This document shows positions 1-28,487 of a DNA stretch of 40,430 bases, one piece after another (position 1 is the first letter of the stretch; each line of letters opens with the position of its first letter). The position numbers and the translations under genes are program-made. Under the pieces are notes generated by a model that was given only the letters and a program-made list of their open reading frames with translations, searched no databases and had not been told where the DNA came from. This DNA comes from Candidatus Gottesmanbacteria bacterium RIFOXYB1_FULL_47_11 (GTDB lineage Bacteria; Patescibacteriota; Microgenomatia; UBA10105; UBA927): contig MFKE01000020.1 of the NCBI GenBank assembly GCA_001779455.1, positions 1 to 40,430 on the forward strand, written 5' to 3'.

Positions 1-631
1 AGACGATTTCATATCCCTTTGGATGGCAAATATCGCTAAGGTAGCAAAACCAGATTTCAGTATCATCTCGTACGAAAATTGGAAGAACACCCGCGCCATG
101 TGGGACGAGATCGAGAAGTATTGGAAGGTGCGTAACATGTTGATATGGAGGTTACCCAACAGGCACCAGGGGTTCTCAGCTAAATATAAATTTTTCTCAA
201 AATACGATATAGCTATGGTTGGAACGAGTGAGGGAAAACAAATAAATGCAGAGGTTGAAGAAGAACTTTTGCAAAACGAATATGAGACTGCGTTATATGC
301 GACATCGGGGAAATCCCACTGGGAAGGATATGAACACGGAAAGAAGAATCAACCAACCGATTTTATAGAGTTTAATGCTTCGGACGAGAAACATTCTGGC
401 CAAGGGGTTGTATTTGGCTGTAAGCCCACAGAAATTCTTATCCCCTATATTAAGATGCTTACAAAACGTGGCGATCTCATAATCGAGCCCTTTGGAGGCA
501 GTGGAAGCACATTGATCGCCGCCACCAAAATGAAAAGACGATGCTACATCATGGAAAAGTCACCCGTGTACACAGAAGTCATTATTAAGCGCTGGGAAAA
601 ATTAGTTGGGCAGAAAGCTAAGAAATTATGA
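1..631 (+). CDS. DNA N4/N6-methyltransferase, C-terminal part (5' end probably runs off the window)
   Basis: The frame is open from base 2. The protein carries the SAM-binding motif EPFGGSGSTLIAA typical of beta-class N4/N6 DNA methylases. No DPPY-type catalytic motif is visible, which fits N-terminal truncation by the window edge. The stop overlaps the next start (ATGA at 628-631). Confidence 0.7.
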   Translation, partial: DDFISLWMANIAKVAKPDFSIISYENWKNTRAMWDEIEKYWKVRNMLIWRLPNRHQGFSAKYKFFSKYDIAMVGTSEGKQINAEVEEELLQNEYETALYATSGKSHWEGYEHGKKNQPTDFIEFNASDEKHSGQGVVFGCKPTEILIPYIKMLTKRGDLIIEPFGGSGSTLIAATKMKRRCYIMEKSPVYTEVIIKRWEKLVGQKAKKL

Positions 632-1062
632 AAAACCAAAACAACCAAATTACAGTCAAAGATCGAATTAAAAATGATCAGGTTTTATTGCTAGAACAAC
701 TTAGAAAAACTCCTATCGTTCAAATCGCTTGCGAAAAAGTCGGAGTTGGCAGAGCCACCTACTACCGCTGGAGAAAAGAAAGTGTGGAATTTGCCAAACA
801 AAGTGACCAAGCGTTACTTGATGGGAGCCTTCTCGTAAATGATATGGCCGAGAGTCAACTGATGAGTGCTATCAAAGACAAAAACATGACCGGAATAATT
901 TTCTGGCTCAAGCACCACCATCCAGCCTATGCAACTCGTGTGGAGGTAACAACAAATAACAAAAACCAAGATATTGAGCTAACCGATGAACAGAAAGAAT
1001 TATTAAACAAAGCATTAGAAATGGTGGCACTAGCCCCACCAGAAAAGGAGACTCATGAATGA
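628..1062 (+). CDS. HTH protein, putative terminase small subunit
   Basis: 144 aa with an HTH-like segment (VGVGRATYYRWRKES). It is translationally coupled to the methylase upstream and overlaps the large terminase start by 8 nt. The function is assigned by position only. Confidence 0.45.
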   Translation: MKNQNNQITVKDRIKNDQVLLLEQLRKTPIVQIACEKVGVGRATYYRWRKESVEFAKQSDQALLDGSLLVNDMAESQLMSAIKDKNMTGIIFWLKHHHPAYATRVEVTTNNKNQDIELTDEQKELLNKALEMVALAPPEKETHE

Positions 1063-2593
1063 CCATCAAGAAATAATCAACTTAATCCAAAGTGACCCTA
1101 ATTTTAGGAGAGCCTTAACCCGAGAAAGTTTTTCGTGGTTCTTTGTCACATATTTTACCCACTACATAACCTGTCCCACAGCTCCTTTCCAAAAGGAAAT
1201 ATTCAATCTCCTTCAGAATGAAGGAATCTTAAAGGTCGTGATAACTGCCTTTCGAGGTTCAGCAAAATCCACCATTGCGACTCTTGCCTACCCAATCTGG
1301 GCGATGCTTGGCAGGCCAGCCAAAAAATATACACTGGTTGTGAGTCAAACCCAGGATCTTTCAAAGCAAATCTTGACTAACATTAAGCAGGAGCTTTCTT
1401 CCAATGAGTTACTTATTAGGGATTTCGGACCATTTACTGAGGTTGCCGATGAGTGGCGATCTAACTCGTTTGTTATTCCTCAATACAACGCCAGAATTTC
1501 AGCTATTTCCCAAAGCGAAAGCATTCGGGGACTTCGCCACTATCAATACCGGCCTGATCTCATCGTCATTGATGATGTAGAGGACTTAGAATCGGTCAAA
1601 ACCCGAGAGGGTCGAGATAAGCTTTGGAACTGGTATACCGGAGAAGCCATGCCTATTGGCGAAATGAATACAAAAATAGTTATCGTGGGAAACCTCTTGC
1701 ACGAAGACTCCCTGATGATGCGACTTAAAGAGAGTATTAATTTTGGGAAAATGGATGGAGTTTATCGAGAATATCCTCTTTTGGACAAAAACGACAATAT
1801 CGCCTGGCCAGGCAAGTATCCTTCCATGATGCACATAGAGACCAAGAGACGACAGGTAGCTGACGAATCGGCCTGGTACCGAGAGTACTTATTGAAATTT
1901 ATTTCCGATGACAAACGAATTGTCCAAAGAAGCTGGCCCAAGTATTATGATGAGTTGCCAGATCTGAAACGATTCCCTCCACGATTTATTGGTATTGGAG
2001 TCGACCTTGCGATTTCGGAAAAAACTACCGCAGATTTTACCTCCCTCATTCCGTTTATTGCCATTGGGGGTGGAGATAATTTAAAAATATATATTCTGCC
2101 ATACATAGTAAATAAACGACTCAATTTTACCGACACGATTAGTGAGATCAAAAGACTATGCGATTTGCTAAAAAAAGACTTTCAGAGAGTTCCTATCGTT
2201 TATGTAGAAAATGTTGGGTATCAGATAGCTGTCGTTCAGCATCTCAATGTTCAGCAAGTCGTAGCAGAACCAGTTTCGATTTCTGGAATGAATAAACAAA
2301 CAAGATTAGAAGCGGCAACTCCATATATCCGGTTAGGGAAAGTACTTTTTCCTCAGAAAGGAGCGGAAGAATTAATAAGCCAGATAGTAAACTTTGGTAT
2401 CGAAAAACATGATGATTTAGTTGATGCATTCACAATTATCTGTTTGAAGATCCTAGAATCTGATTATCCTACATACAAATCGAGTGGACCTACTAAGCCA
2501 CCCGTAGATCATTGGGGATTCGACTCCTTTACAGGAGAATATCGCAACCTATCAGCTCCCATCACCGCTGGAATGCTCGACATGAAGTTCTAG
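1055..2593 (+). CDS. terL: phage terminase large subunit
   Basis: 512 aa. It has a Walker A-like FRGSAKST, a Walker B-like DLIVIDDVEDLES, and a C-terminal nuclease-like region with acidic residues (KHDDLVDAF). The size and layout are typical of TerL. Confidence 0.8.
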   Translation: MNDHQEIINLIQSDPNFRRALTRESFSWFFVTYFTHYITCPTAPFQKEIFNLLQNEGILKVVITAFRGSAKSTIATLAYPIWAMLGRPAKKYTLVVSQTQDLSKQILTNIKQELSSNELLIRDFGPFTEVADEWRSNSFVIPQYNARISAISQSESIRGLRHYQYRPDLIVIDDVEDLESVKTREGRDKLWNWYTGEAMPIGEMNTKIVIVGNLLHEDSLMMRLKESINFGKMDGVYREYPLLDKNDNIAWPGKYPSMMHIETKRRQVADESAWYREYLLKFISDDKRIVQRSWPKYYDELPDLKRFPPRFIGIGVDLAISEKTTADFTSLIPFIAIGGGDNLKIYILPYIVNKRLNFTDTISEIKRLCDLLKKDFQRVPIVYVENVGYQIAVVQHLNVQQVVAEPVSISGMNKQTRLEAATPYIRLGKVLFPQKGAEELISQIVNFGIEKHDDLVDAFTIICLKILESDYPTYKSSGPTKPPVDHWGFDSFTGEYRNLSAPITAGMLDMKF

Positions 2594-4903: not shown

Positions 4904-6988
4904 ATGAATAAAATTAAAAAACGAGACGGTAGAATTGTCTCATTCAAACAAGAAAAGATAACCTCAGCCATTAGCAAGGCGGGTAAAGAAACTGGTGAAT
5001 TTGATCTTTCTCAAGCAGAAAAACTCTCCAACAAAGTTGTAGAAAAACTGAACCAAGTCGTTACTGGTATCCCAACTGTCGAACAGGTTCAAGATATTGT
5101 TGAGGATGTGCTTTTGGACTCCCGATTTAAGAAAACAGCCAAGGCATATATTCTCTATCGGAATCAACATAAGCAATTGCGCAAGATCACCAATGCCGTT
5201 AATAACGGGTTAGTTGATAATTACCTTAACAAGACAGACTGGCAGGTAAAAGAGAACAGCAATATGTCTTATTCCCTGCAAGGACTGAATAATTACATAT
5301 CAAGTGAGGTAAGTAAAAATTATTGGCTACATAAGATATATCCAGAGCAAATTCGCTTGGCGCACATCTCAGGTGACTTTCATCTTCATGATCTTAATAT
5401 CCTCTCTGTCTATTGTGTGGGTTGGGATCTGTTTGATTTATTGATGGAAGGATTTACAGGAGTGTCAGGCAAGATTTCCAGTAGACCTCCGAAACATTTT
5501 CGATCAGCTTTGGGACAGGTGGTTAATTTTTTCTACACTCTACAAGGAGAGGCTGCGGGAGCACAGGCATTTAGTAATTTTGACACCCTACTTGCTCCGT
5601 TTATCCATTACGACAAACTCAACTATAAAGAGGTAAAACAAGCTCTTCAGGAATTTCTCTTTAATATTAATGTGCCAACTCGGGTTGGTTTTCAAACTCC
5701 GTTTACCAATGTCACGCTTGATTTGACCGTCCCCAAGCACTATGATTCTCAATCCGTCATTATCGGTGGACAACCACAGAAAGAAACATATCAGGAATTT
5801 CAAAAAGAAATGGATATGCTTAATAAAGCCTTTTTAGAAGTTATGGCAGAGGGCGATGCGAGTGGTCGGGTTTTTACATTCCCTATCCCTACTTACAACA
5901 TTACCAAGGACTTTGATTGGGACAATGAGATTTGTAAATCACTTTGGGAGGTGACGGGTAAGTATGGGTTGCCGTATTTTTCCAACTTCATCAATTCTGA
6001 TATGAACCCAGAGGACGCCCGCTCTATGTGTTGTCGATTAAGAATTGATAATAGACAGCTGGAAAAGCGAGGTGGCGGACTTTTTGGAGCAAATCCATTA
6101 ACTGGCTCGATTGGAGTAGTTACCGTTAATCTTCCTCGTATCGGCTATGAAACCAAAACTAAAAAACAGTTTTTGGCGAAACTTAAGGAGTTGATGGTGT
6201 TAGCAAAAGATAGCTTGGAAATCAAGCGAAAAGTGCTGGAAAAATTCACCGAGGCGAATCTCTATCCCTACACAAAGTTTTATTTAAGAGGTATTAAAGC
6301 CCGTCATAAGTGTTACTGGAGAAATCACTTTTCTACCATTGGAATTATAGGAATGAACGAAGCTATCCTTAACCTTTTTGGGGAAAACATTGCTTCGGAT
6401 AAGGGTAAACAGTTTGCTGAAGAGGTTTTGGAATTTATGCGGGACATTTTACTTACTTTTCAAAAAGAGACGGGAAATAACTACAACTTAGAGGCTACAC
6501 CAGCCGAAGGAACATCGTATAGGCTGGCTCTGTCTGATCAGAAAAAACTTAAAAATAGTAATTTTGCAAACGGTAAAGGTAAAAACGCGATTAGTCCTTT
6601 CTATACCAATTCCACACATTTACCTGTCAATTACACCAACGACATATTTGACGCATTGGATTTACAAGACAACTTGCAAACCAAATACACGGGTGGGACG
6701 GTAGTGCATCTTTTCCTGGGAGAGCGAATAGATGATAGTGAGAGCGTAAAAAACCTAATCAAAAAAGTTTGTGAGAATTATCGATTACCCTATTTTACTT
6801 TGTCACCCACTTTTAGTGTTTGCCCTACACACGGTTATTTGATCGGCGAAGTTCCTGTTTGTGATAAATGTGGCACTCAATGCGAGGTGTATTCCAGGAT
6901 CGTGGGTTATCTAAGACCAATTGATCAATGGAACGATGGTAAACGAGCAGAGTTCAGTATGAGGAAGACATATGGAGTTCAAACATAG
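4904..6988 (+). CDS. nrdD: anaerobic ribonucleoside-triphosphate reductase (class III RNR)
   Basis: The N-terminus has an ATP-cone start (MNKIKKRDGRIVSF), and the active-site region reads SMCCRLRID. The C-terminus has a zinc site (CPTHGY...CDKCGTQC) and a glycyl-radical motif (SRIVGYLRP). The start was moved to 4904 because the riboswitch terminator lies upstream. Confidence 0.95.
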   Translation: MNKIKKRDGRIVSFKQEKITSAISKAGKETGEFDLSQAEKLSNKVVEKLNQVVTGIPTVEQVQDIVEDVLLDSRFKKTAKAYILYRNQHKQLRKITNAVNNGLVDNYLNKTDWQVKENSNMSYSLQGLNNYISSEVSKNYWLHKIYPEQIRLAHISGDFHLHDLNILSVYCVGWDLFDLLMEGFTGVSGKISSRPPKHFRSALGQVVNFFYTLQGEAAGAQAFSNFDTLLAPFIHYDKLNYKEVKQALQEFLFNINVPTRVGFQTPFTNVTLDLTVPKHYDSQSVIIGGQPQKETYQEFQKEMDMLNKAFLEVMAEGDASGRVFTFPIPTYNITKDFDWDNEICKSLWEVTGKYGLPYFSNFINSDMNPEDARSMCCRLRIDNRQLEKRGGGLFGANPLTGSIGVVTVNLPRIGYETKTKKQFLAKLKELMVLAKDSLEIKRKVLEKFTEANLYPYTKFYLRGIKARHKCYWRNHFSTIGIIGMNEAILNLFGENIASDKGKQFAEEVLEFMRDILLTFQKETGNNYNLEATPAEGTSYRLALSDQKKLKNSNFANGKGKNAISPFYTNSTHLPVNYTNDIFDALDLQDNLQTKYTGGTVVHLFLGERIDDSESVKNLIKKVCENYRLPYFTLSPTFSVCPTHGYLIGEVPVCDKCGTQCEVYSRIVGYLRPIDQWNDGKRAEFSMRKTYGVQT

Positions 6989-15407: not shown

Positions 15408-15552
15408 TAAATAGTGTTAAGAAACTCTGCGCTTCTTTATAAAAAGATTATTATTTGGAGCAAGGACGAGTATTTGAAGATTATATCTTGCAATAAATCC
15501 TTATAGTATTCCTCTACTAGACTTCCACCACCCTTGCGGTACCTTGTGCTTG

Positions 15553-16866
15553 ATGAAAGACAATACCAGGCTAAAGTACTGCCTCTATGCACGTAAATCG
15601 AGCGAGTCCGATGAACGACAAGCGATGTCGATTGATGGTCAGCTCAAGGAAATGCAATTTCTTGCGAAGAGAGAAAAACTCAATATCACCGAAACTATTA
15701 CAGAAAGTCATTCAGCAAAAGAATCAGGACAACGACCAGAATTTAATAATCTTCTACTTGGCGTAACTGAAGAGAGATATAACAGCATTCTTACATGGGC
15801 ACCCGATCGACTGTCAAGAAACGCTGGGGATTTAGGACGAATCGTTGATTTAATGGATCAAGGAAAACTGACTCATATTAAGACCTACTCACAATCGTTT
15901 ACGAATAATCCAAACGAGAAATTTCTACTCATGATTCTTTGCTCACAAGCAAAACTGGAAAATGATAATCGAGGTGTGAATGTAAAGAGAGGATTAAGAA
16001 GTAAATGTGAGATGGGTATCCGACCAGGTGTTGCACCGATTGGTTATCGAAACGTATTAAAAGTGAATCGCATCTCAACGGTAGAACTTGACCCCGAACG
16101 AGCACCAGTCATCAAACAGATATTTCATAAAGTTGCCGATCTAGGTTTCTCCGGACGAATGGTTAAAAAATGGCTGGATGATATTGGATTTATTACAAAG
16201 AGCGGATGCAAAATGCCTTTAAGTAAAATCTATGTTGCACTCCAAAACTCCTTTTACTATGGTGAATTCAAATATGGCGATAAATGGTATATAGGCACCT
16301 ACGAACCACTTATCACTAAAGCATTGTTTGAAAGAGTCCAAATACAGCTTCAGGTTGCTCCAAGACAATGGAACAAACAGCTTTTCCCTTTCAAAAAGAT
16401 TTGTATTTGCGGATCATGTGGTGGGAGCGTCACCGCTGAACTCAAATATCGAAGAACTAAAGCAAACATCATAAACTCGCATATTTACTATCATTGTAAT
16501 CGAATCAAGAAATACGATTGTCCTGAACCGTATATCACCGAGCAGGAACTAATTAAACAATTAATCGGATATCTGCCAAAAATAAAGCTTAACACTTCAT
16601 ACCTGATGCAGGAATTTGAAATTGAGGTTAAACGATTACAGCATCTTAAAGCAACAGTGGTTAGCGAATACATACCTAGAGTTGAAATCACTCCTCATAA
16701 CACAGGTGACCAGAACCCTAGAGAATACAATGAAACACATACAGACATGCTGAAAGAATATTTGCTACACGTTTTACAATTTGGAACTCCCGAAGAGCGA
16801 ATTAAGATTCTCAAAGGAGTGACTTCAAAATTTAGCCTAAGAGATAGACAACTTATGCTTATCTGA
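15553..16866 (+). CDS. large serine recombinase (integrase)
   Basis: It has a resolvase catalytic domain (CLYARKSSESDERQ, DRLSRN), a recombinase domain and a Cys-rich zinc-ribbon region (CICGSCGG...YYHCN). ATG 15553 is preferred over the TTG at 15544. Confidence 0.9.
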   Translation: MKDNTRLKYCLYARKSSESDERQAMSIDGQLKEMQFLAKREKLNITETITESHSAKESGQRPEFNNLLLGVTEERYNSILTWAPDRLSRNAGDLGRIVDLMDQGKLTHIKTYSQSFTNNPNEKFLLMILCSQAKLENDNRGVNVKRGLRSKCEMGIRPGVAPIGYRNVLKVNRISTVELDPERAPVIKQIFHKVADLGFSGRMVKKWLDDIGFITKSGCKMPLSKIYVALQNSFYYGEFKYGDKWYIGTYEPLITKALFERVQIQLQVAPRQWNKQLFPFKKICICGSCGGSVTAELKYRRTKANIINSHIYYHCNRIKKYDCPEPYITEQELIKQLIGYLPKIKLNTSYLMQEFEIEVKRLQHLKATVVSEYIPRVEITPHNTGDQNPREYNETHTDMLKEYLLHVLQFGTPEERIKILKGVTSKFSLRDRQLMLI

Positions 16867-17541: not shown

Positions 17542-17745
17542 AGATATTTCACTGGGATAGGGCTAAAAATGGCTCTCTTCTCGAAAAGCTTAGAACCGAG
17601 TGCAAATACCTTGAGGGTCATTTAGGCGATTTTCTACATTACAGGCTATGTTCGAGATACTTGCGTTTTCTCTCACTTTTTTAGCAAGCCACATCGGGCT
17701 AATTTGACATAGTAGATGGGTCTTGGAGCAACCGAAAACCTTCTG

Positions 17746-17834
17746 CGGAAAGGGCGAGATTCGAACTCGCGTAGGCCTTTACAGACCTCCAAGGTTTTCG
17801 AGACCTGGCCGTTTAACCGCTCCGGCACCTTTCC
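17746..17834 (-). tRNA. tRNA-Ser (anticodon CGA)
   Basis: The reverse complement is GGAAAGGTGCCGGAGCGGTTAAACGGCCAGGTCTCGAAAACCTTGGAGGTCTGTAAAGGCCTACGCGAGTTCGAATCTCGCCCTTTCCG. The acceptor GGAAAGG pairs with CCTTTCC, and the anticodon loop is CT-CGA-AA. It has a long variable arm (AGGTCT/AGGCCT) and a T-arm GCGAG-TTCGAAT-CTCGC. No CCA is encoded. Confidence 0.9.
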
Positions 17835-17837
17835 AAC

Positions 17838-17912
17838 TGGCGCTCCCGCGCAGAATCGAACTGCGATCAGAGGTTCCGCAAACCCCTATTCTATCCGTTA
17901 AACTACAGGAGC
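17838..17912 (-). tRNA. tRNA-Arg (anticodon GCG)
   Basis: The reverse complement is GCTCCTGTAGTTTAACGGATAGAATAGGGGTTTGCGGAACCTCTGATCGCAGTTCGATTCTGCGCGGGAGCGCCA. It folds as a cloverleaf with anticodon stem GGGGT/ACCTC, loop TT-GCG-GA, and T-arm CGCAG-TTCGATT-CTGCG. CCA is encoded. Only 3 nt separate it from tRNA-Ser. Confidence 0.9.
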
Positions 17913-17941
17913 CTAACACAGCTGATTATACCGCAAAACGG

Positions 17942-18460
17942 CTACGAGGGCTTCTCCAGAGGAATTTTCTCGGTGATCCAGCGGGCAGCATTGTCCACCC
18001 ATGTTTTTTCCGGCTGTTCCCGGAAGGGGATATATTGGGCAACAAGTTTGTGAACCTGTTCCTTATCCACACTCCCCAAAAGAACAATGATGCGCGTGCC
18101 GATAATCGGCCGCAGCACCAACATTGTAGATCCCCATTGTTCCTCAAACCAAAAATCCACGAGCTCTTCCCACCGGTAAAAATGACCGGCGGATTCAAGT
18201 CCCAAATTGGTTATCCGGTGGCTTACTTCCTCCGGAGGCACTGTGGAAAGCACATAGACCAGAAATACGATGGAAACCACAGCGGCAATCAACAAAAATT
18301 CCCGGGCAAAAACCAGGATGACAATGAGAAGAAATACGATCGCGCCGATGTTGGTGAAATATTCCTTGTCTCTCCGTTTGAACAGCCGCGAGGGCGAACT
18401 CCAGGCAAGTAAGACCTCTTGCTGAACCTGTTTTTGCTCTTCGGCAGGGTTATTGTCCAT
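17942..18460 (-). CDS. hypothetical two-TM membrane protein
   Basis: I chose the start at internal Met (MDNNPAEEQ...) because the longer track ORF would overlap tRNA-Ser(TGA). It has two hydrophobic helices followed by a soluble C-terminal domain. Confidence 0.55.
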   Translation of the reverse strand: MDNNPAEEQKQVQQEVLLAWSSPSRLFKRRDKEYFTNIGAIVFLLIVILVFAREFLLIAAVVSIVFLVYVLSTVPPEEVSHRITNLGLESAGHFYRWEELVDFWFEEQWGSTMLVLRPIIGTRIIVLLGSVDKEQVHKLVAQYIPFREQPEKTWVDNAARWITEKIPLEKPS

Positions 18461-18497
18461 GAAATCAGTATATATCAAAACGTGGGGAAACAAAATG

Positions 18498-18579
18498 CGG
18501 AGGGTACAGGGGTCGAACCTGTTAGGGATTGCTCCCACTAGTTTTCAAGACTAGCGCGTTACCGTCCCGCCCACCCTCC
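18498..18579 (-). tRNA. tRNA-Ser (anticodon TGA)
   Basis: The reverse complement is GGAGGGTGGGCGGGACGGTAACGCGCTAGTCTTGAAAACTAGTGGGAGCAATCCCTAACAGGTTCGACCCCTGTACCCTCCG. The anticodon arm is CTAGT-CTTGAAA-ACTAG, there is a long variable arm, and the T-arm is ACAGG-TTCGACC-CCTGT. No CCA is encoded. Confidence 0.85.
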
Positions 18580-18584
18580 ACGGG

Positions 18585-18670
18585 CGGAGAGTGTGGGAGT
18601 CGAACCCACTCGGGGCTTTAAGACCCCGCAGGTTTAGCAAACCTGTGCCTTACCATCCGGCCCACTCTCC
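18585..18670 (-). tRNA. tRNA-Ser (anticodon GCT)
   Basis: The reverse complement is GGAGAGTGGGCCGGATGGTAAGGCACAGGTTTGCTAAACCTGCGGGGTCTTAAAGCCCCGAGTGGGTTCGACTCCCACACTCTCCG. The anticodon arm is CAGGT-TTGCTAA-ACCTG, there is a long variable arm, and the T-arm is GTGGG-TTCGACT-CCCAC. No CCA is encoded. Confidence 0.9.
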
Positions 18671-18693
18671 GTAGGCCGTATTATATCAAGAAA

Positions 18694-20109: not shown

Positions 20110-20538
20110 ATGCAAACAAAACTCATTAACTATAGAGAAACAGCAAAGTTTAACCTTTGGGCTAAGTATTTTACCGATGCGAGTAATAAGGACACATGGG
20201 GGAACGCAACTCAATCAGCAATAATCGCCTACAAGTATAGTTCGCCCGGACAGTACCATCTTGCGTCCATTACCGGATCGAAAAATATGAGGAAATATGA
20301 GTTACTAGCCCCAAGCATGTTAGACAAGATAGGCTTTAGCTTCGGAGAGCTTCTCAAAATAGGGGTCAAGAAAATGCTTGATGGCAACTACAAAGACTGG
20401 GATGCGCTCATGGAACGACTGGGGTACTTTGAGGGGAAAGATGCCATACAACAAAATAATCAATACAATCAATTTAATTTTGAAGAAATCGGGCAAGCTA
20501 TTGCACAATCAAGAAAAGAAAGAGGCCTTGCTTATTGA
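20110..20538 (+). CDS. terminase small subunit-like protein
   Basis: GNATQSAIIAYKYSSPGQYHLASITGSKNMRKYE resembles the conserved GNATQAAIRAGYS...A...GSRLLRN core of Terminase_2-type small subunits, recalled from memory. Confidence 0.5.
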   Translation: MQTKLINYRETAKFNLWAKYFTDASNKDTWGNATQSAIIAYKYSSPGQYHLASITGSKNMRKYELLAPSMLDKIGFSFGELLKIGVKKMLDGNYKDWDALMERLGYFEGKDAIQQNNQYNQFNFEEIGQAIAQSRKERGLAY

Positions 20539-20590: not shown

Positions 20591-21592
20591 ATGAACAAAA
20601 ACTCCACTCGCCAGGTTGTTATAGACAGAATCTACCGATTAAACGGTAAAGAGTTTCAACAGCTATGTTGGGATATTCTTATTAAAGTTTTTACTGACCT
20701 ACAAACACCACGACCAGTCCACGACCTTGGAAGTGATGGCTATACAGTCAAATCCTCAATCTTTTTTGCCTGCTATGCCCCAGAGTCACATGAATATGAT
20801 GCGAGCGAAACGACCGACAAGATAAACGGCGACTACAAAAAGTTTGTTGACAACTGGAAGACGAATGGGAACTTCAAAAAATGGGTCTTTTTGACAAAAG
20901 GTAATTTGATTGGCGCTCCTCATCAAAAAATTGTAGAACTTAACAACAATGGTGACGGCGTAACCAAAGAAAACTGGGGTGTCGATCAAATCGTAAATAT
21001 GGTCATGGGCTTAGATATACAGCTAATTAAGGAGCTATTTAACCTTGAAGACGCAAATGGGGTTCAACAAACATTTGTTAATCAGGGCATAGTCAATAGC
21101 GGAAATGTCCATATAGATAAACAGGTGGGCACGCTCAATGAGTACAATCAATACTCCGGGGCTGAACAGGATGAAAATAATGCTATCGAGGAAGTATTTA
21201 ATTACGTTATTTCACAACTTCCAAAAACATCACCATTGTCACCGACCGATGAGAAGCGAATTGAAATTAGAGAAAAAATAAAACTCAATTTTACTGACCA
21301 AAAAGACCAAGGCGAGGTAGAAAGGTATTTTAATGATGCGTTTACTCGTACAAAGCTGGTAGAAAGTAAATTACAGGCATTAGATTCTCAAACTCAAAAA
21401 GATATAGAGCTATACATATCAAGAAAATACTCCGAGTTCAAAAGAAATAGTCAGTCGAGCATGGAAATTCTTGATAAGCTCTTCGATTTTTTTACCCCGG
21501 ATAAAAGGAAAACGAATCCTGCTTATGCAGTAACCGTAATGGCGTTTGTACTCCTCTTTTTTGAGGATTGTACAATTTTTGAGAAAAAATAA
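20591..21592 (+). CDS. candidate ABC-3C effector component (unassigned N-terminal domain)
   Basis: 333 aa, first gene of a 3-gene unit. The N-terminal pattern GKEFQQLCWDIL...HDLGSDGYT...FFACYAPE...WVFLTKG is reminiscent of Mrr-like nuclease folds, but I cannot find a clear (D/E)xK lysine. The C-terminal half is helical. Confidence 0.45.
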   Translation: MNKNSTRQVVIDRIYRLNGKEFQQLCWDILIKVFTDLQTPRPVHDLGSDGYTVKSSIFFACYAPESHEYDASETTDKINGDYKKFVDNWKTNGNFKKWVFLTKGNLIGAPHQKIVELNNNGDGVTKENWGVDQIVNMVMGLDIQLIKELFNLEDANGVQQTFVNQGIVNSGNVHIDKQVGTLNEYNQYSGAEQDENNAIEEVFNYVISQLPKTSPLSPTDEKRIEIREKIKLNFTDQKDQGEVERYFNDAFTRTKLVESKLQALDSQTQKDIELYISRKYSEFKRNSQSSMEILDKLFDFFTPDKRKTNPAYAVTVMAFVLLFFEDCTIFEKK

Positions 21593-21593
21593 T

Positions 21594-21818
21594 ATGATAA
21601 TGCCAACTAAACACGAAGACATCCGAAAAAATTCGATGGTTCTTGGAGCTAATGTAATTTCATATCTCAAAAGCTATGGTGGTGAAAATATCGAAACACT
21701 CTTTCAATCGCTAAAACAAAAGGCTGGAATTAGTTTGGATCAATATGGTGATATTGTTACAATTTTGTGGTTGGGAAACATCATTACGATTAAAGAGCAT
21801 AGAATACATCTTAGATAA
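21594..21818 (+). CDS. candidate ABC-3C middle component (74 aa)
   Basis: It starts 1 nt after the upstream stop and ends 3 nt before the ATPase start. I chose the internal Met (MIMPTKHEDIRKNSMVLGANVISYLK...) over the longer track ORF. Its size and position match the small middle component of ABC-3C loci. Confidence 0.45.
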   Translation: MIMPTKHEDIRKNSMVLGANVISYLKSYGGENIETLFQSLKQKAGISLDQYGDIVTILWLGNIITIKEHRIHLR

Positions 21819-21821
21819 GAT

Positions 21822-23582
21822 ATGTTATTAAAAAAACTTTATTCTGAACCAGAAGGACTATTCGAACCCGTTGAATTTCATGACGGAATCAACTTTGTGT
21901 TTGGTGAAAAAAGTGAGTCATCTGACCCAAAAGAATCTCTAAACGGGATTGGAAAATCTACATTATTAGACTTGATAGACTTTTGTCTTCTCTCTTCTTA
22001 TTCAGGCTATCATAATCCGAGATTGTATTCTGCCAAGAATATCATGGTAAATTACTTGATTGTTTTGGAGTTCGAAATTGAAGATGAGACTTACATAATC
22101 AAACGAGGTGTCAAAGAACCAAACAAAATCCAATTTGGCAAACGCGATTCTCTCAGAGAGTATTCGAGAGACGAGCTTGGACAATTGTTTGCCGACCTAA
22201 TTTTCAAGAAGAAAAATTATGAAGGAAATTTTTCAAACAAATGGTGGCGCCGACTAATAGCTTTCTATCTAAAAATACAGAATCAAAAGAAGTCGAGATT
22301 TACAGAACCAGTCAAATACATTGATGAATTAAGCGTTGCTGAACTGAATCAGTATCTATTCTTCCTTATGGGACTCGACAATGCCTTGGCCACAAGAAAT
22401 TTCGACATTCAATTTAACTTAAAAAGGCGTGAGAAAGCAATAGTAGAAGTTAAACAATTGGTTGAAGAAACATATGGACTAAAAGATATTGGCGAAGCAT
22501 CGAACCAAATTGACAGGCTAAATCAGGAAGTAAAAAGTGTCGAGGATACAATCTCTCAATTCAAATTGTCAACACAGTATCAAGACGCTGAACAGCAAGC
22601 AAATAAAATCACGGCAGAAATTAAAGCACTTTGGTTCCAAAACTTCTCTGACAGGAAAAAAATAGATGCTTATGAAGATAGCCTTAAGCTTGATATAGAT
22701 GTTGATGTCGATAGGATAAAAAGAGTATATGAAGAATTCAATAAACTGATGGCCGACAAAGTAGCCACCACACTTGATTCTGCAATTAAATTTAGAAAAG
22801 ACCTAATAACTTCAAGGAAAACTTTCATTTCCACAGAGAAAAAATCTCTATCAAGCAAAATATCTGAAAGAGAACAAAAGATAAACAAGCTAGAATCTGA
22901 AAGAGCTAAACTATTTTCATTTTTGTCAAACAAAAAAGCTATAAACGACTTGTCAGAAGCCTATTTACTTCTTAGCCATAAAAAAGACCAACTTGGAGAG
23001 TTGGGTGGTAAGGTTAAACTATACACAGACCTACAACGAGAGAAGGCCGACTTAAAAATCGAGGCAACGAAAATCGAAAAAGAAATGTACGATTTTGTCG
23101 AAAAACATACAGAAACGGTTTCTTCTTTCAGAACAATTTTCCACCAAATCTACAACGCTGTTTATCCGGCAAGCAAAAACCAATCAATGCTGGCACTTAA
23201 TATAAAACCTGAAACCGATGCTGTTGTTAATATAGAAATTACTTTTCCAGCTATGTACTCTAAAGGTAAAAACCAAGGAAGAACGTTAGTTTTTGATTTA
23301 GCTGTTTTAATTAACTCTATCAAAAATAACTATCCCGGACCAAAATTTCTTGTTCATGATGGTATTTTTGATGGAGTGGACAAAGCTCATTTTGTATCAC
23401 TCTACAAGTATCTCGAAGACCTAAAAACCAAAATGCGGTTTCAGTACATCGTTACCCTGAATGAAGAAGGAACTTTGAGCGAAAAATTTGGAGATGTGGA
23501 CGAATTATCTCCAAAAGGTATAAAGAGCAAGGCCATCAGTATATTAACCGCAAAGAAAAAACTTTTTGGTAAAGATTTTTAA
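21822..23582 (+). CDS. ABC/SMC-like ATPase, DUF2326 (YydD-like) type
   Basis: The N-terminus reads FHDGINFVFGEKS...SLNGIGKSTLLDLIDFCL (Walker A). A ~350-aa K/E/Q-rich coiled-coil-like insert follows. The C-terminus reads GRTLVFDLAV...PKFLVHDGIFDGVD (Walker B/D-loop). Confidence 0.75.
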   Translation: MLLKKLYSEPEGLFEPVEFHDGINFVFGEKSESSDPKESLNGIGKSTLLDLIDFCLLSSYSGYHNPRLYSAKNIMVNYLIVLEFEIEDETYIIKRGVKEPNKIQFGKRDSLREYSRDELGQLFADLIFKKKNYEGNFSNKWWRRLIAFYLKIQNQKKSRFTEPVKYIDELSVAELNQYLFFLMGLDNALATRNFDIQFNLKRREKAIVEVKQLVEETYGLKDIGEASNQIDRLNQEVKSVEDTISQFKLSTQYQDAEQQANKITAEIKALWFQNFSDRKKIDAYEDSLKLDIDVDVDRIKRVYEEFNKLMADKVATTLDSAIKFRKDLITSRKTFISTEKKSLSSKISEREQKINKLESERAKLFSFLSNKKAINDLSEAYLLLSHKKDQLGELGGKVKLYTDLQREKADLKIEATKIEKEMYDFVEKHTETVSSFRTIFHQIYNAVYPASKNQSMLALNIKPETDAVVNIEITFPAMYSKGKNQGRTLVFDLAVLINSIKNNYPGPKFLVHDGIFDGVDKAHFVSLYKYLEDLKTKMRFQYIVTLNEEGTLSEKFGDVDELSPKGIKSKAISILTAKKKLFGKDF

Positions 23583-26730: not shown

Positions 26731-26883
26731 ATGTCAATCGAACGGAAAATCACCATAAAACGTGCAAGAGAAATCCTCGGAGACAAGAGTGATAATCTTT
26801 CGGATAAGCAAATAGCTATTGTCTTGAATTCGTTATATGCTTTGTCAGAAAGGATCACGCAAGCCGTGACCAAAACAATATGA
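26731..26883 (+). CDS. small ORF translationally coupled to the serine recombinase (50 aa)
   Basis: MSIERKITIKRAREILGDKSDNLSDKQIAIVLNSLYALSERITQAVTKTI*. Its TGA overlaps the recombinase ATG (ATGA at 26880-26883). It is below the ORF-track cutoff. Confidence 0.4.
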   Translation: MSIERKITIKRAREILGDKSDNLSDKQIAIVLNSLYALSERITQAVTKTI

Positions 26884-28487
26884 AGGCTCTTATATACTGT
26901 CGCGTCAGCTCGGAACGTCAGGTAACTGAAGGAAGCGGTTTGACCAGCCAAGAGCAACGCTGCCGTCAATACGCGGAAAATAAACAATACAACGTCTCAA
27001 AAGTCTTTGCGGATGAAGGAGTTTCTGGGGGCCTATTCGACAGGCCGGCAATGCTCCAGCTCATTGATTATTTGGATACCCATGCATATGAACAATTCGT
27101 CATCATATTTGATGACCTAGCTCGTTTTGCTCGCGATCTTCAGGTGCATCTGAAACTCAAAACTGAACTCGTGTCTAGAGGAGCGACACTAGAGAGTCCT
27201 AATTTTAAATTTGAGGATTCTCCGGAAGGTGAGTTTATAGAAAACGTGCTCGCCTCAAAAGCACAGCTGGACAGACACCAAAACAAACGACAGGTCATCC
27301 AAAAAATGAAAGCGCGTGCGGAATCCGGTTTCTGGCCCTTCTGTCTCCCGCCGGGTCTCAAAAACCATAGGGATCCCTTACGCGGAAAAGTCTCCTCACC
27401 CGATGAACCGATCGCTTCAATTTTTAAGTCAGCTATTGAAGGATACCGCGATCGGATTCTACTTACGCAGCTCGACGTGGTAGATTATATTCAAGAACAA
27501 TATAAGTTAAAAGGAATAAGCCGCGCCATATCGCTTCATGGAGTACAAAGACTACTCACGGAAATTTTGTATACCGGTTACATCGAATATCCGCACTGGG
27601 GCATAACAAGAAGAAAAGGAGCTCACCAAGGATTCATTACGATTGAGACACACGATGAAGTTTTGAAAATTCTAAATGACCGTACAAAACCAAAAGTGAG
27701 ACGAGACACAAATCCGGAATTCCCGCTAAGAGGCCTCATTTTATGCCAAGACTGCAAAAAACCAATGACAGCGAGCTTTAATACGAGCCGCAACGGACAA
27801 CGATATCCGAATTATTTTTGCAAAACCAACGGTTGCCCTTTACAAAACAAGATTATCCATCGAAAAGATCTTGAAGACAAATTTGTAGCAATTTTACACA
27901 CAGCGAAACTGGATAAGTCCACAAAAAATCTGGCTATTGAAGTGCTTACCGACGTCTGGAGCCAACAACAGGCACAGATGATAGATGCTCAAACCGCTCA
28001 TGAGCGCGTAAAGCGGGAATTATTGGGTGAAATCGATTCTGTAACCACACGTATTAAAAAGACTAAAAATGAATCGCTAGTCCCAGTCTATGAAGAAGAA
28101 CTCATTAAACTTCAAAAACAAAAAGAAGACTTGAACACTCAACACATCCCATCAAACTTCACTCAAGAACAGTTTGGAACCGCTACGAGGAAAGTAATCG
28201 ACACACTGGAAAATCCAGTCGGGATGTGGCAAACCGAAGATCTGAACGACAGACTGACCGTATTCTTCATGCATTTTGACCAAAAATTGGTCTATGACAG
28301 AGAATTGGGATTTGGAACCGCAACTTTAGGGCAGTCTGTCAGCATAATTCGCTCTTTGGGGAGCGAAAAAATATCTAGTGTGGAGACGGAGAGTAATGAG
28401 CTCTCGTCCAGAACGATATCCCTTAACATATCTACAGGCGTAGTCAATCAATATTGTCATCTTTTTTGTGGCCGGTTGACAGGCTAA
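26880..28487 (+). CDS. large serine recombinase (integrase)
   Basis: Resolvase domain (LIYCRVSSERQ, DDLARFARD), recombinase domain and zinc-ribbon-like CQDCKKPMT...FCKTNGC, followed by a coiled-coil region. The last ~35 codons are antisense to ssrA. Confidence 0.9.
   Translation: MKALIYCRVSSERQVTEGSGLTSQEQRCRQYAENKQYNVSKVFADEGVSGGLFDRPAMLQLIDYLDTHAYEQFVIIFDDLARFARDLQVHLKLKTELVSRGATLESPNFKFEDSPEGEFIENVLASKAQLDRHQNKRQVIQKMKARAESGFWPFCLPPGLKNHRDPLRGKVSSPDEPIASIFKSAIEGYRDRILLTQLDVVDYIQEQYKLKGISRAISLHGVQRLLTEILYTGYIEYPHWGITRRKGAHQGFITIETHDEVLKILNDRTKPKVRRDTNPEFPLRGLILCQDCKKPMTASFNTSRNGQRYPNYFCKTNGCPLQNKIIHRKDLEDKFVAILHTAKLDKSTKNLAIEVLTDVWSQQQAQMIDAQTAHERVKRELLGEIDSVTTRIKKTKNESLVPVYEEELIKLQKQKEDLNTQHIPSNFTQEQFGTATRKVIDTLENPVGMWQTEDLNDRLTVFFMHFDQKLVYDRELGFGTATLGQSVSIIRSLGSEKISSVETESNELSSRTISLNISTGVVNQYCHLFCGRLTG

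What the first reader, a model, noticed from the sequence alone, without database searches (positions are those of the whole stretch)
20591..23582. Candidate ABC-three-component (ABC-3C) conflict system with an unassigned effector, inside a mobile island
Three co-directional genes of 333, 74 and 586 aa are packed with 1-nt and 3-nt gaps. The last gene is an ABC/SMC-like ATPase. It has Walker A NGIGKST near the N-terminus, a long coiled-coil-like insert and Walker B-like FLVHDGIFDGVD at the C-terminus, which is the DUF2326/YydD pattern. The gene order (variable effector, tiny middle component, ATPase) matches the ABC-3C systems predicted by comparative genomics (Krishnan, Burroughs, Iyer and Aravind, 2020). 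As far as I know these systems lack experimental characterisation. The 333-aa protein has an Mrr-like looking N-terminus (HDLGSDGYT...FFACYAPE...WVFLTKG) but no obvious catalytic lysine. It could therefore be an inactive or novel effector fold. The locus lies in an AT-rich island next to phage-type genes, as expected for a defence cargo.
Basis: partly seen in the sequence, partly recalled or inferred. Interest (0 to 1): 0.72.

Follow-up and report, generated by a model that had tools for sequence, protein, structure and literature searches.

The report
Short Lamassu (ABC-3C) anti-phage operon
This is a three-gene Lamassu (ABC-3C) anti-phage defence operon whose killing domain is an unusual restriction-endonuclease-like module; the family is known and already studied experimentally, so this is a new member, not a new kind of system.

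Summary
Three tightly packed + strand genes of 333, 74 and 586 aa sit at 20591-23582. The 586-aa protein is a DUF2326/YydD ABC ATPase and also matches PADLOC PDC-M68B and LmuB. The 74-aa protein belongs to the ABC-3C middle-component family MC6. The C-terminal half of the 333-aa protein is a CTD10-like ABC-3C docking domain. In 63 of 65 homologous loci from representative genomes the ATPase follows the same small gene and an effector gene. No other gene in the window travels with the three.

ABC-3C is type II Lamassu. It has been shown to defend against phage, and cryo-EM structures were published in 2025.

The effector N-domain (residues 1-155) has no Pfam, NCBIfam or PHROGs family. Its predicted structure is a restriction-endonuclease (Mrr-like) fold. 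The same domain heads STAND, TPR-PIN and TIR proteins. Relatives match a PADLOC LmuA model. The canonical (D/E)xK lysine is absent from the whole family, but D45, D49, K77 and D81 are nearly invariant.

Most likely mechanism: a nuclease held inactive by the LmuB-LmuC complex and released when aberrant DNA is sensed. Verdict: new member of a known kind, modest interest.

One side observation in related loci may be new. "Effector-less" Lamassu operons carry a small membrane-protein gene whose C-terminal motif matches the LmuA N-terminus.

The parts
20591..21592 (+). lmuA-like effector gene (333 aa): N-terminal effector domain, linker and C-terminal docking domain
   Evidence: ORF. There are 22 homologues, from WWE3 and Shapirobacteria among others. 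Full-length AF2 model has pLDDT 79.9 with two domains and a disordered linker.
20591..21055 (+). Effector N-domain, residues 1-155: restriction-endonuclease (Mrr-like) fold with a non-canonical conserved set (Q23, D45, D49, A60, Y62, K77, D81)
   Evidence: No Pfam, NCBIfam or PHROGs match. AF2 domain model has pLDDT 88.1 and pTM 0.83. Foldseek against PDB puts EcoT38I first with probability 0.96 and E 0.056. Against BFVD, six of the top seven matches are phage 'Restriction endonuclease' proteins with E 1.2e-4 to 2.6e-2 and TM 0.55-0.62. Conservation over 135 cluster representatives is.
21056..21166 (+). N/Q/G-rich linker, residues 156-192, predicted disordered
   Evidence: pLDDT is below 50 for residues 155-192. 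The linker is present only in the closest relatives.
21167..21589 (+). All-helical C-terminal domain, residues 193-333, CTD10-like: the part expected to dock onto LmuB and LmuC
   Evidence: Pfam CTD10 E 4.9e-5, 24.3 bits, below the 28.1-bit cut-off. PADLOC PDC-M68A E 1.8e-6, matching model positions 124-252. An HMM of this domain matches the gene before the middle component in 56 related loci, E 1e-15 to 1e-54.
21594..21818 (+). lmuC-like middle component (74 aa), MC6 family
   Evidence: Pfam MC6 E 0.0019 for this copy. 54 of 55 family members match MC6, best E 2.3e-13. Homologues lie directly before the ATPase in 54 loci.
21822..23582 (+). lmuB-like SMC/Rad50-type ABC ATPase (586 aa), DUF2326/YydD clade, short type without a zinc hook
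   Evidence: DUF2326 E 2.6e-20. PADLOC PDC-M68B E 8.5e-75 and LmuB PDLC03859 E 7.6e-16. PHROG SbcC-like E 2.9e-5. It has a single Cys and no CxxC motif.
21942..21962 (+). Walker A, NGIGKST (residues 41-47)
   Evidence: N41, G44 and K45 are invariant in 30 homologues.
23256..23303 (+). Conserved YSKGKNQGRTLVFDLA (residues 479-494), probably the ABC signature region
   Evidence: G482, L489 and D492 are invariant, and N484, G486, R487 and T488 are at least 90% conserved. Assigning it to the signature motif is my inference.
23346..23381 (+). Walker B and D-loop region, FLVHDGIFDGVD (residues 509-520). The Walker B Asp513 is followed by an invariant Gly, not the usual Glu.
26880..28487 (+). Context, not part of the system: large serine recombinase at the right end of the AT-rich segment
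   Evidence: Pfam Resolvase E 5.8e-24 plus Zn_ribbon_recom. PHROG integrase E 2.2e-59.

Best explanation
This is a short, type II Lamassu (ABC-3C) abortive-infection operon, lmuA-lmuC-lmuB, carried on an AT-rich segment that ends in a serine recombinase. The host is probably a Patescibacteria (CPR) bacterium. Shown here: the family assignment of all three proteins, the conserved gene order, and the restriction-endonuclease-like fold of the effector N-domain. Inferred from the characterised Vibrio and Bacillus systems: two copies of the 586-aa LmuB, one 74-aa LmuC and the helical C-domain of one LmuA form a complex that keeps LmuA monomeric and inactive. The LmuB heads and LmuC then bind free DNA ends or abnormal DNA structures made during phage or plasmid replication. 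LmuA is released and oligomerises. Its N-domain then cuts DNA indiscriminately, killing or arresting the infected cell. The active site is non-canonical. The usual (D/E)xK lysine is replaced by Tyr62. I propose that D45, D49, D81 and Lys77 from the following helix do the chemistry.
For: ATPase: DUF2326 above threshold, PDC-M68B E 8.5e-75, LmuB E 7.6e-16. Middle component: 54 of 55 family members match MC6. Effector C-domain: CTD10-like and conserved in 56 loci. The triad order holds in 63 of 65 loci across bacteria and archaea, and only these three genes co-occur. ABC-3C equals type II Lamassu, with a 1:2:1 complex, DNA-end sensing and effector release followed by tetramerisation (bioRxiv 10.1101/2025.06.23.660979). 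Short LmuB of about 600 aa is paired with Cap4, Mrr, HNH, SMEK and other effectors (PMC12663957). Defence needs the ATPase, the effector and lmuC, and is abortive (Millman et al.). The N-domain has a REase fold. Eight of 13 relatives tested match PADLOC LmuA PDLC03852. D45, D49, K77 and D81 are conserved in 129-135 of 135 representatives. The same domain occupies the N-terminal slot of STAND and TPR-PIN conflict proteins.
Against: No member of this DUF2326/MC6/CTD10 clade, and no copy of this N-domain, has been tested experimentally as far as I could find. The window's own matches to CTD10 and MC6 are below Pfam's thresholds. Foldseek E-values against solved structures are not significant (best 0.056). 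The canonical catalytic lysine is missing from the whole family, so nuclease activity is unproven. The Walker B Asp is followed by Gly instead of the catalytic Glu, so ATP hydrolysis may be slow or absent. LmuB shows no sequence-level match to any solved LmuB chain. The mechanism is therefore carried over across a large evolutionary distance.
Confidence: 0.72

Rival explanations
1. The operon is a Lamassu system, but the N-domain is catalytically dead. It would act as a DNA-binding, sensing or recruiting module, and the toxic activity would come from elsewhere or from DNA binding or oligomerisation alone.
For: The (D/E)xK lysine is absent: position 62 is Tyr or His in 129 of 135 representatives. 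In other proteins the same domain sits in front of bona fide effector domains, namely TIR in P0166 and PIN in P0162 and P0168. More divergent Lamassu branches (L017, L030, L052-L057) lose even D45 or D49.
Against: D45, D49, K77 and D81 are kept in 129-135 of 135 cluster representatives across very different architectures. That pattern is typical of a catalytic or metal-binding site. In the Lamassu architecture this slot holds the only effector, and no extra conserved gene accompanies the triad. PD-(D/E)xK enzymes whose lysine has moved to another structural element are well known (my own knowledge).
Confidence: 0.17
2. The N-domain is an active enzyme with a different substrate or chemistry, built on a REase scaffold, for example an RNase or tRNase, or a reaction that uses the conserved Tyr62.
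For: The conserved set (D, D, K, D plus Tyr or His) does not match the Mrr consensus. No curated nuclease family matches. Structural E-values are weak against solved nucleases.
Against: The best structural neighbours are all DNA endonucleases of the REase fold. Other effectors in the same Lamassu clade are DNases or DNase-like: HNH, and SMEK, which matches a PADLOC 'REase' model.
Confidence: 0.08
3. The triad is not a defence system. It would be a DNA-repair or maintenance module, or an addiction module that stabilises the mobile element.
For: LmuB-type ATPases descend from SbcC/Rad50 repair proteins. The operon lies on a recombinase-bearing island. No phage challenge has been done for this clade.
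Against: The patchy distribution, with 45-50% identity between CPR bacteria, Bacteroidota and methanogens, indicates horizontal spread typical of defence genes. Effector swapping among REase-like, SMEK and HNH domains is a hallmark of conflict systems. Relatives in the wider family defend against phage experimentally.
Confidence: 0.03

Closest known systems
Type II 'short' Lamassu, e.g. Vibrio cholerae DdmABC / Lamassu Vc-Cap4 (LmuA-LmuC-LmuB)
   Same: Same three-gene order. LmuB is about 600 aa and lacks a zinc hook. A small LmuC is present. LmuA is an N-terminal effector, a linker and a helical C-domain. The family is recognised as ABC-3C.
   Different: The effector here is a REase-like domain, not Cap4. 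The C-domain and middle component are CTD10-like and MC6, not CTD7 and MC3. The ATPases are too far apart for HMMER to connect them through solved structures.
Lamassu-Mrr (E. coli O150:H5 SE15), tested by Millman et al. 2022
   Same: A Lamassu system with a restriction-endonuclease-fold LmuA effector that defends by abortive infection.
   Different: I could not retrieve that sequence for comparison. The window's domain lacks the Mrr (D/E/Q)xK lysine. It does not itself match any PADLOC LmuA model; only its relatives match PDLC03852. A more canonical Mrr-like LmuA (loci L048, L060) matches a different model, PDLC03851.
PADLOC candidate system PDC-M68
   Same: The ATPase matches PDC-M68B over its full length (E 8.5e-75). 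The effector C-domain matches the C-terminal half of PDC-M68A.
   Different: The N-terminal half of the PDC-M68A model is an HNH domain (L013 matches positions 6-109), not the window's domain. PDC systems are untested candidates.
Bacillus subtilis YydB-YydC-YydD
   Same: YydD is the name-giving DUF2326 ATPase. An integrative model of the YydD-YydB contact exists (PDB 9a6c) and appeared as a weak Foldseek match.
   Different: My recollection, not checked here, is that YydB is a phosphoesterase-type effector. The Foldseek match is not significant (E 0.34).
STAND/Avs-like and TPR-GreAB-C-PIN (Agp-like) conflict proteins
   Same: They carry the same N-terminal domain as the window's LmuA: phmmer E 1e-12 to 1e-4, always at residues 1 to about 150.
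   Different: The sensor scaffolds are entirely different (NB-ARC/TPR, TPR-PIN, TIR plus PD-Lambda-4_A). Only the N-terminal module is shared.

Membership tests
ABC-3C / type II Lamassu | SMC/Rad50-like ABC ATPase (LmuB) with Walker A at the N-terminus, a coiled-coil insert, and Walker B at the C-terminus | tested here: met
   PADLOC LmuB PDLC03859 E 7.6e-16 over residues 6-548. DUF2326 E 2.6e-20. AAA_23 E 0.0031. Motif positions and coiled-coil-only matches in between.
ABC-3C / type II Lamassu | Small middle component (LmuC / MC) encoded directly before the ATPase | tested here: met
   The 74-aa ORF lies 3 nt before the ATPase. 54 of 55 family members match Pfam MC6, best E 2.3e-13. This copy alone scores E 0.0019, below threshold.
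ABC-3C / type II Lamassu | LmuA with a variable N-terminal effector and a conserved helical C-terminal domain (CTD) | tested here: met
   CTD10 E 4.9e-5 (below threshold). PDC-M68A C-terminal half E 1.8e-6. The C-domain HMM matches 56 loci, while the N-domains fall into at least four unrelated classes plus a class with none.
ABC-3C / type II Lamassu | Conserved gene order effector - middle component - ATPase across distant genomes | tested here: met
   63 of 65 loci from GTDB representative genomes. No other window gene co-occurs.
ABC-3C / type II Lamassu | Protection against phage or plasmids by abortive infection that depends on all three genes | not testable with these tools
   Shown for other Lamassu systems only.
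ABC-3C / type II Lamassu | LmuA:LmuB:LmuC complex of 1:2:1 that sequesters the effector | not tested
   No multimer prediction tool was available. The stoichiometry is known for the Vibrio system.
Pfam DUF2326 (YydD) | Score above the curated gathering threshold | tested here: met
   73 bits against a 28.7-bit cut-off.
Mrr / PD-(D/E)xK restriction endonuclease | REase alpha-beta-beta-beta-alpha-beta core fold | tested here: met
   The AF2 model (pLDDT 88) has this element order. Foldseek against BFVD gives phage restriction endonucleases at probability 1.00 and TM 0.55-0.62. The PDB top hit is EcoT38I at probability 0.96, though E is 0.056.
Mrr / PD-(D/E)xK restriction endonuclease | Catalytic D ... 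(D/E/Q)xK motif on strands 2 and 3 | tested here: not met
   D49 is present, but the third-strand motif is A60-C-Y62 here and Q/A-x-Y/H throughout the family, with no Lys at this position in any of the counts listed. Pfam Mrr_cat gives no match. It is therefore not filed as Mrr proper, only as REase-fold.
Mrr / PD-(D/E)xK restriction endonuclease | Metal-dependent nuclease activity | not testable with these tools
   Requires biochemistry.
PADLOC PDC-M68 | Both PDC-M68A and PDC-M68B matched | tested here: inconclusive
   The B component matches strongly (8.5e-75). The A component matches only over its C-terminal half (1.8e-6), because the model's N-terminal half is an HNH domain. PADLOC itself was not run.

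The most novel reading that the evidence does not exclude
The effector N-domain represents an uncurated, widespread branch of the restriction-endonuclease fold. In this branch the strand-3 lysine has been lost in every member, and a D-D-K-D set with the lysine on the next helix plus a conserved Tyr or His has taken over. The domain is used as a plug-in killing module by Lamassu, STAND/Avs-like, TPR-PIN and TIR-containing defence proteins. Its chemistry or substrate could differ from classical Mrr nucleases.
Probability: 0.4. Interest if true: 0.45.

Novelty: new member of a known kind. Interest (0 to 1): 0.3.

Why it matters
It places a Lamassu (SMC-type, abortive-infection) defence operon on a mobile segment of a likely CPR/Patescibacteria genome. 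It also defines an effector domain that curated libraries do not yet cover but that recurs across several defence scaffolds. That is useful for annotation and for choosing effectors to test, but it does not change how Lamassu is understood. The side observation could matter more. Lamassu operons described as 'effector-less' appear to carry a fourth gene, a small membrane protein whose tail matches the head of LmuA. If this holds up, it would link SMC-based sensing to a motif-pairing relay of the kind described for amyloid signalling.

Tried and rejected
- Sequence searches of all three proteins and their profiles against PDB chains gave nothing useful. The best results were Rad50 at E 0.13 for the ATPase and Fur at E 0.016 for the middle component.
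- Foldseek with the full-length two-domain model was too noisy, so I repeated it with the N-domain alone.
- hhalign of the N-domain family against the SMEK, HNH and canonical Mrr-like LmuA N-domains from related loci found no relationship, with probabilities below 3%.
- The effector has no tblastn match in plasmids. The ATPase has one weak, unannotated match in phage records.
- The founding ABC-3C paper (Krishnan et al. 2020, PMC7544218) is not held, so I could not read its description of CTD10 and MC6 partners.
- Source names for N-domain relatives were uninformative.
- I tested whether the 142-aa ORF upstream (20110-20538) belongs to the system. It has no family match and occurs in none of the 71 related loci, so I rejected it.
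- I tested whether the window has the small-membrane-protein paired motif seen in effector-less relatives. It does not.
- NCBIfam has no model for any of the three proteins.
Full report
**1. The observation**

The window has three + strand ORFs at 20591-21592 (333 aa), 21594-21818 (74 aa) and 21822-23582 (586 aa). The junctions are TAA-t-ATG and TAA-gat-ATG, giving gaps of 1 and 3 nt. There is no + strand terminator-like site inside the operon. NGIGKST is at residues 41-47 and FLVHDGIFDGVD at residues 509-520 of the large protein. HDLGSDGYT, FFACYAPE and WVFLTKG are in the first 105 residues of the 333-aa protein. Identical proteins are encoded on 10 independent metagenome contigs with the same neighbours. 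The operon GC is 0.355. The tRNA/TPK/ComF block to its left is 0.48 and the right flank from smpB onward is 0.50.

**2. Family assignment of the three proteins**

- The 586-aa protein matches Pfam DUF2326 above threshold (E 2.6e-20, 73 bits against a 28.7-bit cut-off). It also matches PADLOC PDC-M68B over its full length (E 8.5e-75), PADLOC LmuB PDLC03859 (E 7.6e-16) and, weakly, SbcC/Rad50-type models.
- Its middle third matches only coiled-coil proteins.
- It has one cysteine and no CxxC zinc hook.
- The 74-aa protein scores E 0.0019 against Pfam MC6 by itself. However, 54 of 55 members of its family, taken from related loci, match MC6, with a best E of 2.3e-13.
- The 333-aa protein matches Pfam CTD10 (E 4.9e-5, just below threshold) and the C-terminal half of PADLOC PDC-M68A (E 1.8e-6), both over residues about 200-332.
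- NCBIfam has nothing for any of the three.

**3.

A scan of one genome per GTDB species returned 71 loci encoding relatives of the ATPase. They come from Patescibacteria, Bacteroidota, Ignavibacteriota, Planctomycetota, Campylobacterota, methanogens and DPANN archaea.

- Of the 65 loci that I took from the match table as covering most or all of the ATPase, 63 have a 73-121-aa ORF ending at the ATPase start, preceded by a 162-365-aa ORF.
- phmmer with the window's 74-aa protein finds the small ORF in 54 loci (E 6e-8 to 4e-32).
- An HMM of the window effector's residues 193-333 finds the upstream ORF in 56 loci.
- No other gene in the window occurs in any of these loci, apart from serine recombinases, which recur near several of them.

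**4. What the family is**

ABC-3C is the comparative-genomics name for what the defence field calls type II Lamassu: LmuA effector, LmuC middle component and LmuB SMC-like ATPase (bioRxiv 10.1101/2025.06.23.660979; PMC10586767).

- Lamassu systems with several different effectors protect E. coli and B. subtilis by abortive infection. They need the ATPase site, the effector site and lmuC (Millman et al., bioRxiv 10.1101/2022.05.11.491447).
- Cryo-EM work shows an LmuA:LmuB:LmuC complex of 1:2:1 in which LmuA is held as an inactive monomer. It also shows binding of DNA ends by the LmuB head and LmuC, followed by release and tetramerisation of the Cap4 nuclease effector.
- Haudiquet et al. (PNAS 2025, PMC12663957) separate 'short' Lamassu (LmuB about 600 aa) from 'long'. 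For the short type they list the effectors Cap4, Mrr, protease, Sir2, HNH, SMEK and lipase, and a clade (O) that seems to have lost the effector domain.

The window's operon is a short type II Lamassu. I did not, however, find any experiment on a member of this particular DUF2326/MC6/CTD10 clade.

**5. The effector N-domain**

Residues 1-155 match no Pfam, NCBIfam, PHROGs or PADLOC model.

*Effector classes in this clade.* In the related loci, the effectors linked to this ATPase clade fall into five classes:
- the window's domain type, 15 loci;
- SMEK_N, 14 loci;
- HNH-like, 9 loci;
- a more canonical Mrr-like type, 2 loci;
- no domain at all, 24 loci.

*Fold.* An AlphaFold2 model of the domain alone is confident (pLDDT 88.1, pTM 0.83). 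Its order of elements is that of a restriction-endonuclease core: helices, a three-strand meander, helix, strand, helix, strand. Foldseek against solved structures puts the restriction enzyme EcoT38I first (probability 0.96, TM 0.49), but the E-value is only 0.056. Other REase-fold proteins (Nt.BspD6I, FAAP24, Mus81, Bse634I, EcoO109I) are scattered among noise. Against predicted viral structures, six of the top seven matches are phage proteins named 'Restriction endonuclease', with E 1.2e-4 to 2.6e-2, probability 1.00, TM 0.55-0.62 and rmsd 3.4-4.6 Å.

*Distribution.* An exhaustive phmmer search with the domain found 182 cluster representatives at E up to 0.001. Many are LmuA-sized proteins of about 300 aa. 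The domain also sits at the N-terminus of:
- NB-ARC/TPR and other STAND NTPases;
- TPR...PIN proteins of about 1260 aa, of the Agp type;
- a TIR/SEFIR protein that matches PD-Lambda-4_A;
- DUF2806 proteins.

Eight of the 13 relatives I scanned match PADLOC's LmuA model PDLC03852 over model positions 12-140, with E 2.9e-9 to 5.9e-4. The domain is therefore already represented, through its relatives, in Lamassu annotation. It behaves as a swappable N-terminal module of conflict systems.

*Active site.* Conservation across 135 representatives is:

| Position | Residue counts |
|---|---|
| 22 | F 132/135 |
| 23 | Q 117, E 18 |
| 45 | D 134/135 |
| 49 | D 135/135 |
| 50 | G 133/135 |
| 60 | Q 75, A 55 |
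| 62 | Y 101, H 28 |
| 77 | K 133/135 |
| 81 | D 129 of 134 non-gap |

By position in the model, D49 opens strand 2 (the 'PD' position). Positions 60 and 62 lie on strand 3, where Mrr enzymes have (D/E/Q)xK. K77 and D81 lie on the following helix. The canonical lysine is therefore missing from the whole family, not just from this copy, while a different charged set is almost invariant. This argues for a working, non-canonical active site with the lysine supplied from the helix. That is an inference. I could not inspect the model's coordinates to confirm that these residues are close in space. The most divergent Lamassu branches (L017, L030, L052-L057) lose D45 or D49, which keeps open the possibility that the domain can also work without catalysis.

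**6. Points of caution on the ATPase**

The Walker B aspartate (D513) is followed by an invariant glycine rather than the catalytic glutamate usual in ABC ATPases. This clade may therefore bind ATP but hydrolyse it slowly, or use another base. HMMER does not connect this ATPase to any solved LmuB chain. Carrying over the structural mechanism therefore rests on family membership, not on close similarity.

**7. Genomic context**

The operon lies in an AT-rich stretch of about 8 kb (roughly 20.1-28.5 kb, GC 0.39). It sits between a tRNA/TPK/ComF block and smpB, and ends with a large serine recombinase at 26880-28487. A second serine recombinase at 15544-16866 closes another AT-rich block on the left. 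That block carries NrdD/NrdG, Fur and zinc-uptake genes, and a DNA methylase fragment at the window's start. The genes between the operon and the recombinase have no informative matches. 'Mobile island' is therefore plausible but unproven, since no empty site or att sites were identified. 'Phage-type genes' reduces to the recombinase.

The closest homologues of the effector come from WWE3 and Shapirobacteria genomes. From my own recollection, the neighbouring DUF5657 and DUF5659 genes are typical of CPR genomes. I therefore infer a Patescibacteria host.

**8. Mechanism and rivals**

- Best explanation (0.72): a short type II Lamassu in which the LmuB dimer, LmuC and the LmuA C-domain hold a REase-like nuclease inactive until aberrant DNA is sensed. 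The nuclease is then released, assembles and degrades DNA, aborting the infection.
- Rival 1 (0.17): the N-domain is non-catalytic.
- Rival 2 (0.08): the N-domain has a different substrate or chemistry.
- Rival 3 (0.03): the triad is not a defence system.

Identity as Lamassu/ABC-3C alone I put at about 0.9.

**9. Novelty**

This is a new member of a known kind. The system type, its architecture and its general mechanism are published. The effector domain is uncurated in Pfam and NCBIfam but recognisable. Interest is modest (0.3).

**10. Side observation in related loci (not in the window)**

The 24 'effector-less' LmuA proteins, which resemble the published clade O, begin with a 4-47-residue N/Q/G-rich peptide.

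- In 22 of these loci, a small ORF of roughly 50-80 codes ends at or overlaps the LmuA start.
- That ORF encodes one strongly hydrophobic helix (Kyte-Doolittle 19-mer mean above 2 in 16 of the 21 scored, and at least 1.75 in 18), a basic linker, and a C-terminal copy of the same motif as the LmuA N-terminus.
- Cognate pairs score 59.5 on average, against 29.0 for non-cognate pairs and 22.3 ± 5 for shuffled tails. The cognate LmuA is the best match in 15 of the 21 loci scored.
- This is the gene-pair logic described for bacterial amyloid signalling, as in Bab/Agp (bioRxiv 10.1101/2024.11.07.622273).
- No paper in the held library mentions both amyloid signalling and Lamassu.

The observation suggests that these operons have not lost their effector. 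Instead they may have outsourced it to a small membrane protein recruited through a shared motif. The window itself has no such pair.

Noticed in passing
Related loci, e.g. L012:5010-5231 with LmuA at 5234; L018:5026-5229; L024:4940-5179; L050:5101-5295 (21 scored loci listed): Lamassu operons of this clade with an 'effector-less' (C-domain-only) LmuA have a small ORF directly upstream. It encodes one transmembrane-like helix and a C-terminal N/Q/G-rich motif that matches the N-terminus of the cognate LmuA. Cognate pairs score 59.5, against 29.0 for non-cognate pairs and 22.3 for shuffled tails, and the cognate is the best match in 15 of 21 loci. This resembles amyloid-signalling gene pairs and may be an overlooked fourth gene acting as a membrane effector. 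No paper in the held library links the two topics.
   Followed up: partly
window 23346-23381 (LmuB residues 509-520): The Walker B aspartate is followed by an invariant glycine (HDG) instead of the catalytic glutamate typical of ABC ATPases, in all 30 aligned clade members. ATP hydrolysis in this clade may be weak or use another residue.
   Followed up: no
window 21056-21166 (LmuA residues 156-192): The linker between the effector and docking domains is N/Q/G-rich (VNQGIVNSGNVHIDKQVGTLNEYNQY) and predicted disordered. Only the closest relatives have it. Its composition resembles the N-terminal motifs of the effector-less LmuA proteins, but no matching partner peptide exists in the window.
   Followed up: partly
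window 15544-16866 and 26880-28487: Two large serine recombinases each close an AT-rich block on either side of a tRNA cluster (17745-18671) and the TPK/ComF genes. This suggests two separate integrated elements. Similar recombinases lie near the Lamassu triad in several other genomes.
   Followed up: partly
window 20110-20538: The 142-aa ORF just upstream of the operon has no family match in Pfam, PADLOC, NCBIfam or PHROGs, and occurs in none of the related loci. By eye, the stretch GNATQSAIIAYKYS resembles the helix-turn-helix of small terminase subunits, but no tool supports this.
   Followed up: partly
window 23-2593: The window starts with a partial N6/N4 DNA methylase, a small HTH protein (HTH_Tnp_1_2, below threshold) and a 512-aa protein with no family match. 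This could be a remnant of a prophage or another mobile element.
   Followed up: no
window 21594-21818 (LmuC) and family alignment A4: The middle-component family gives weak matches to the winged-helix DNA-binding region of Fur: PDB 6dk4 at E 0.016, and three members match Pfam FUR at E down to 3.7e-4. This hints at a winged-helix fold for MC6.
   Followed up: no
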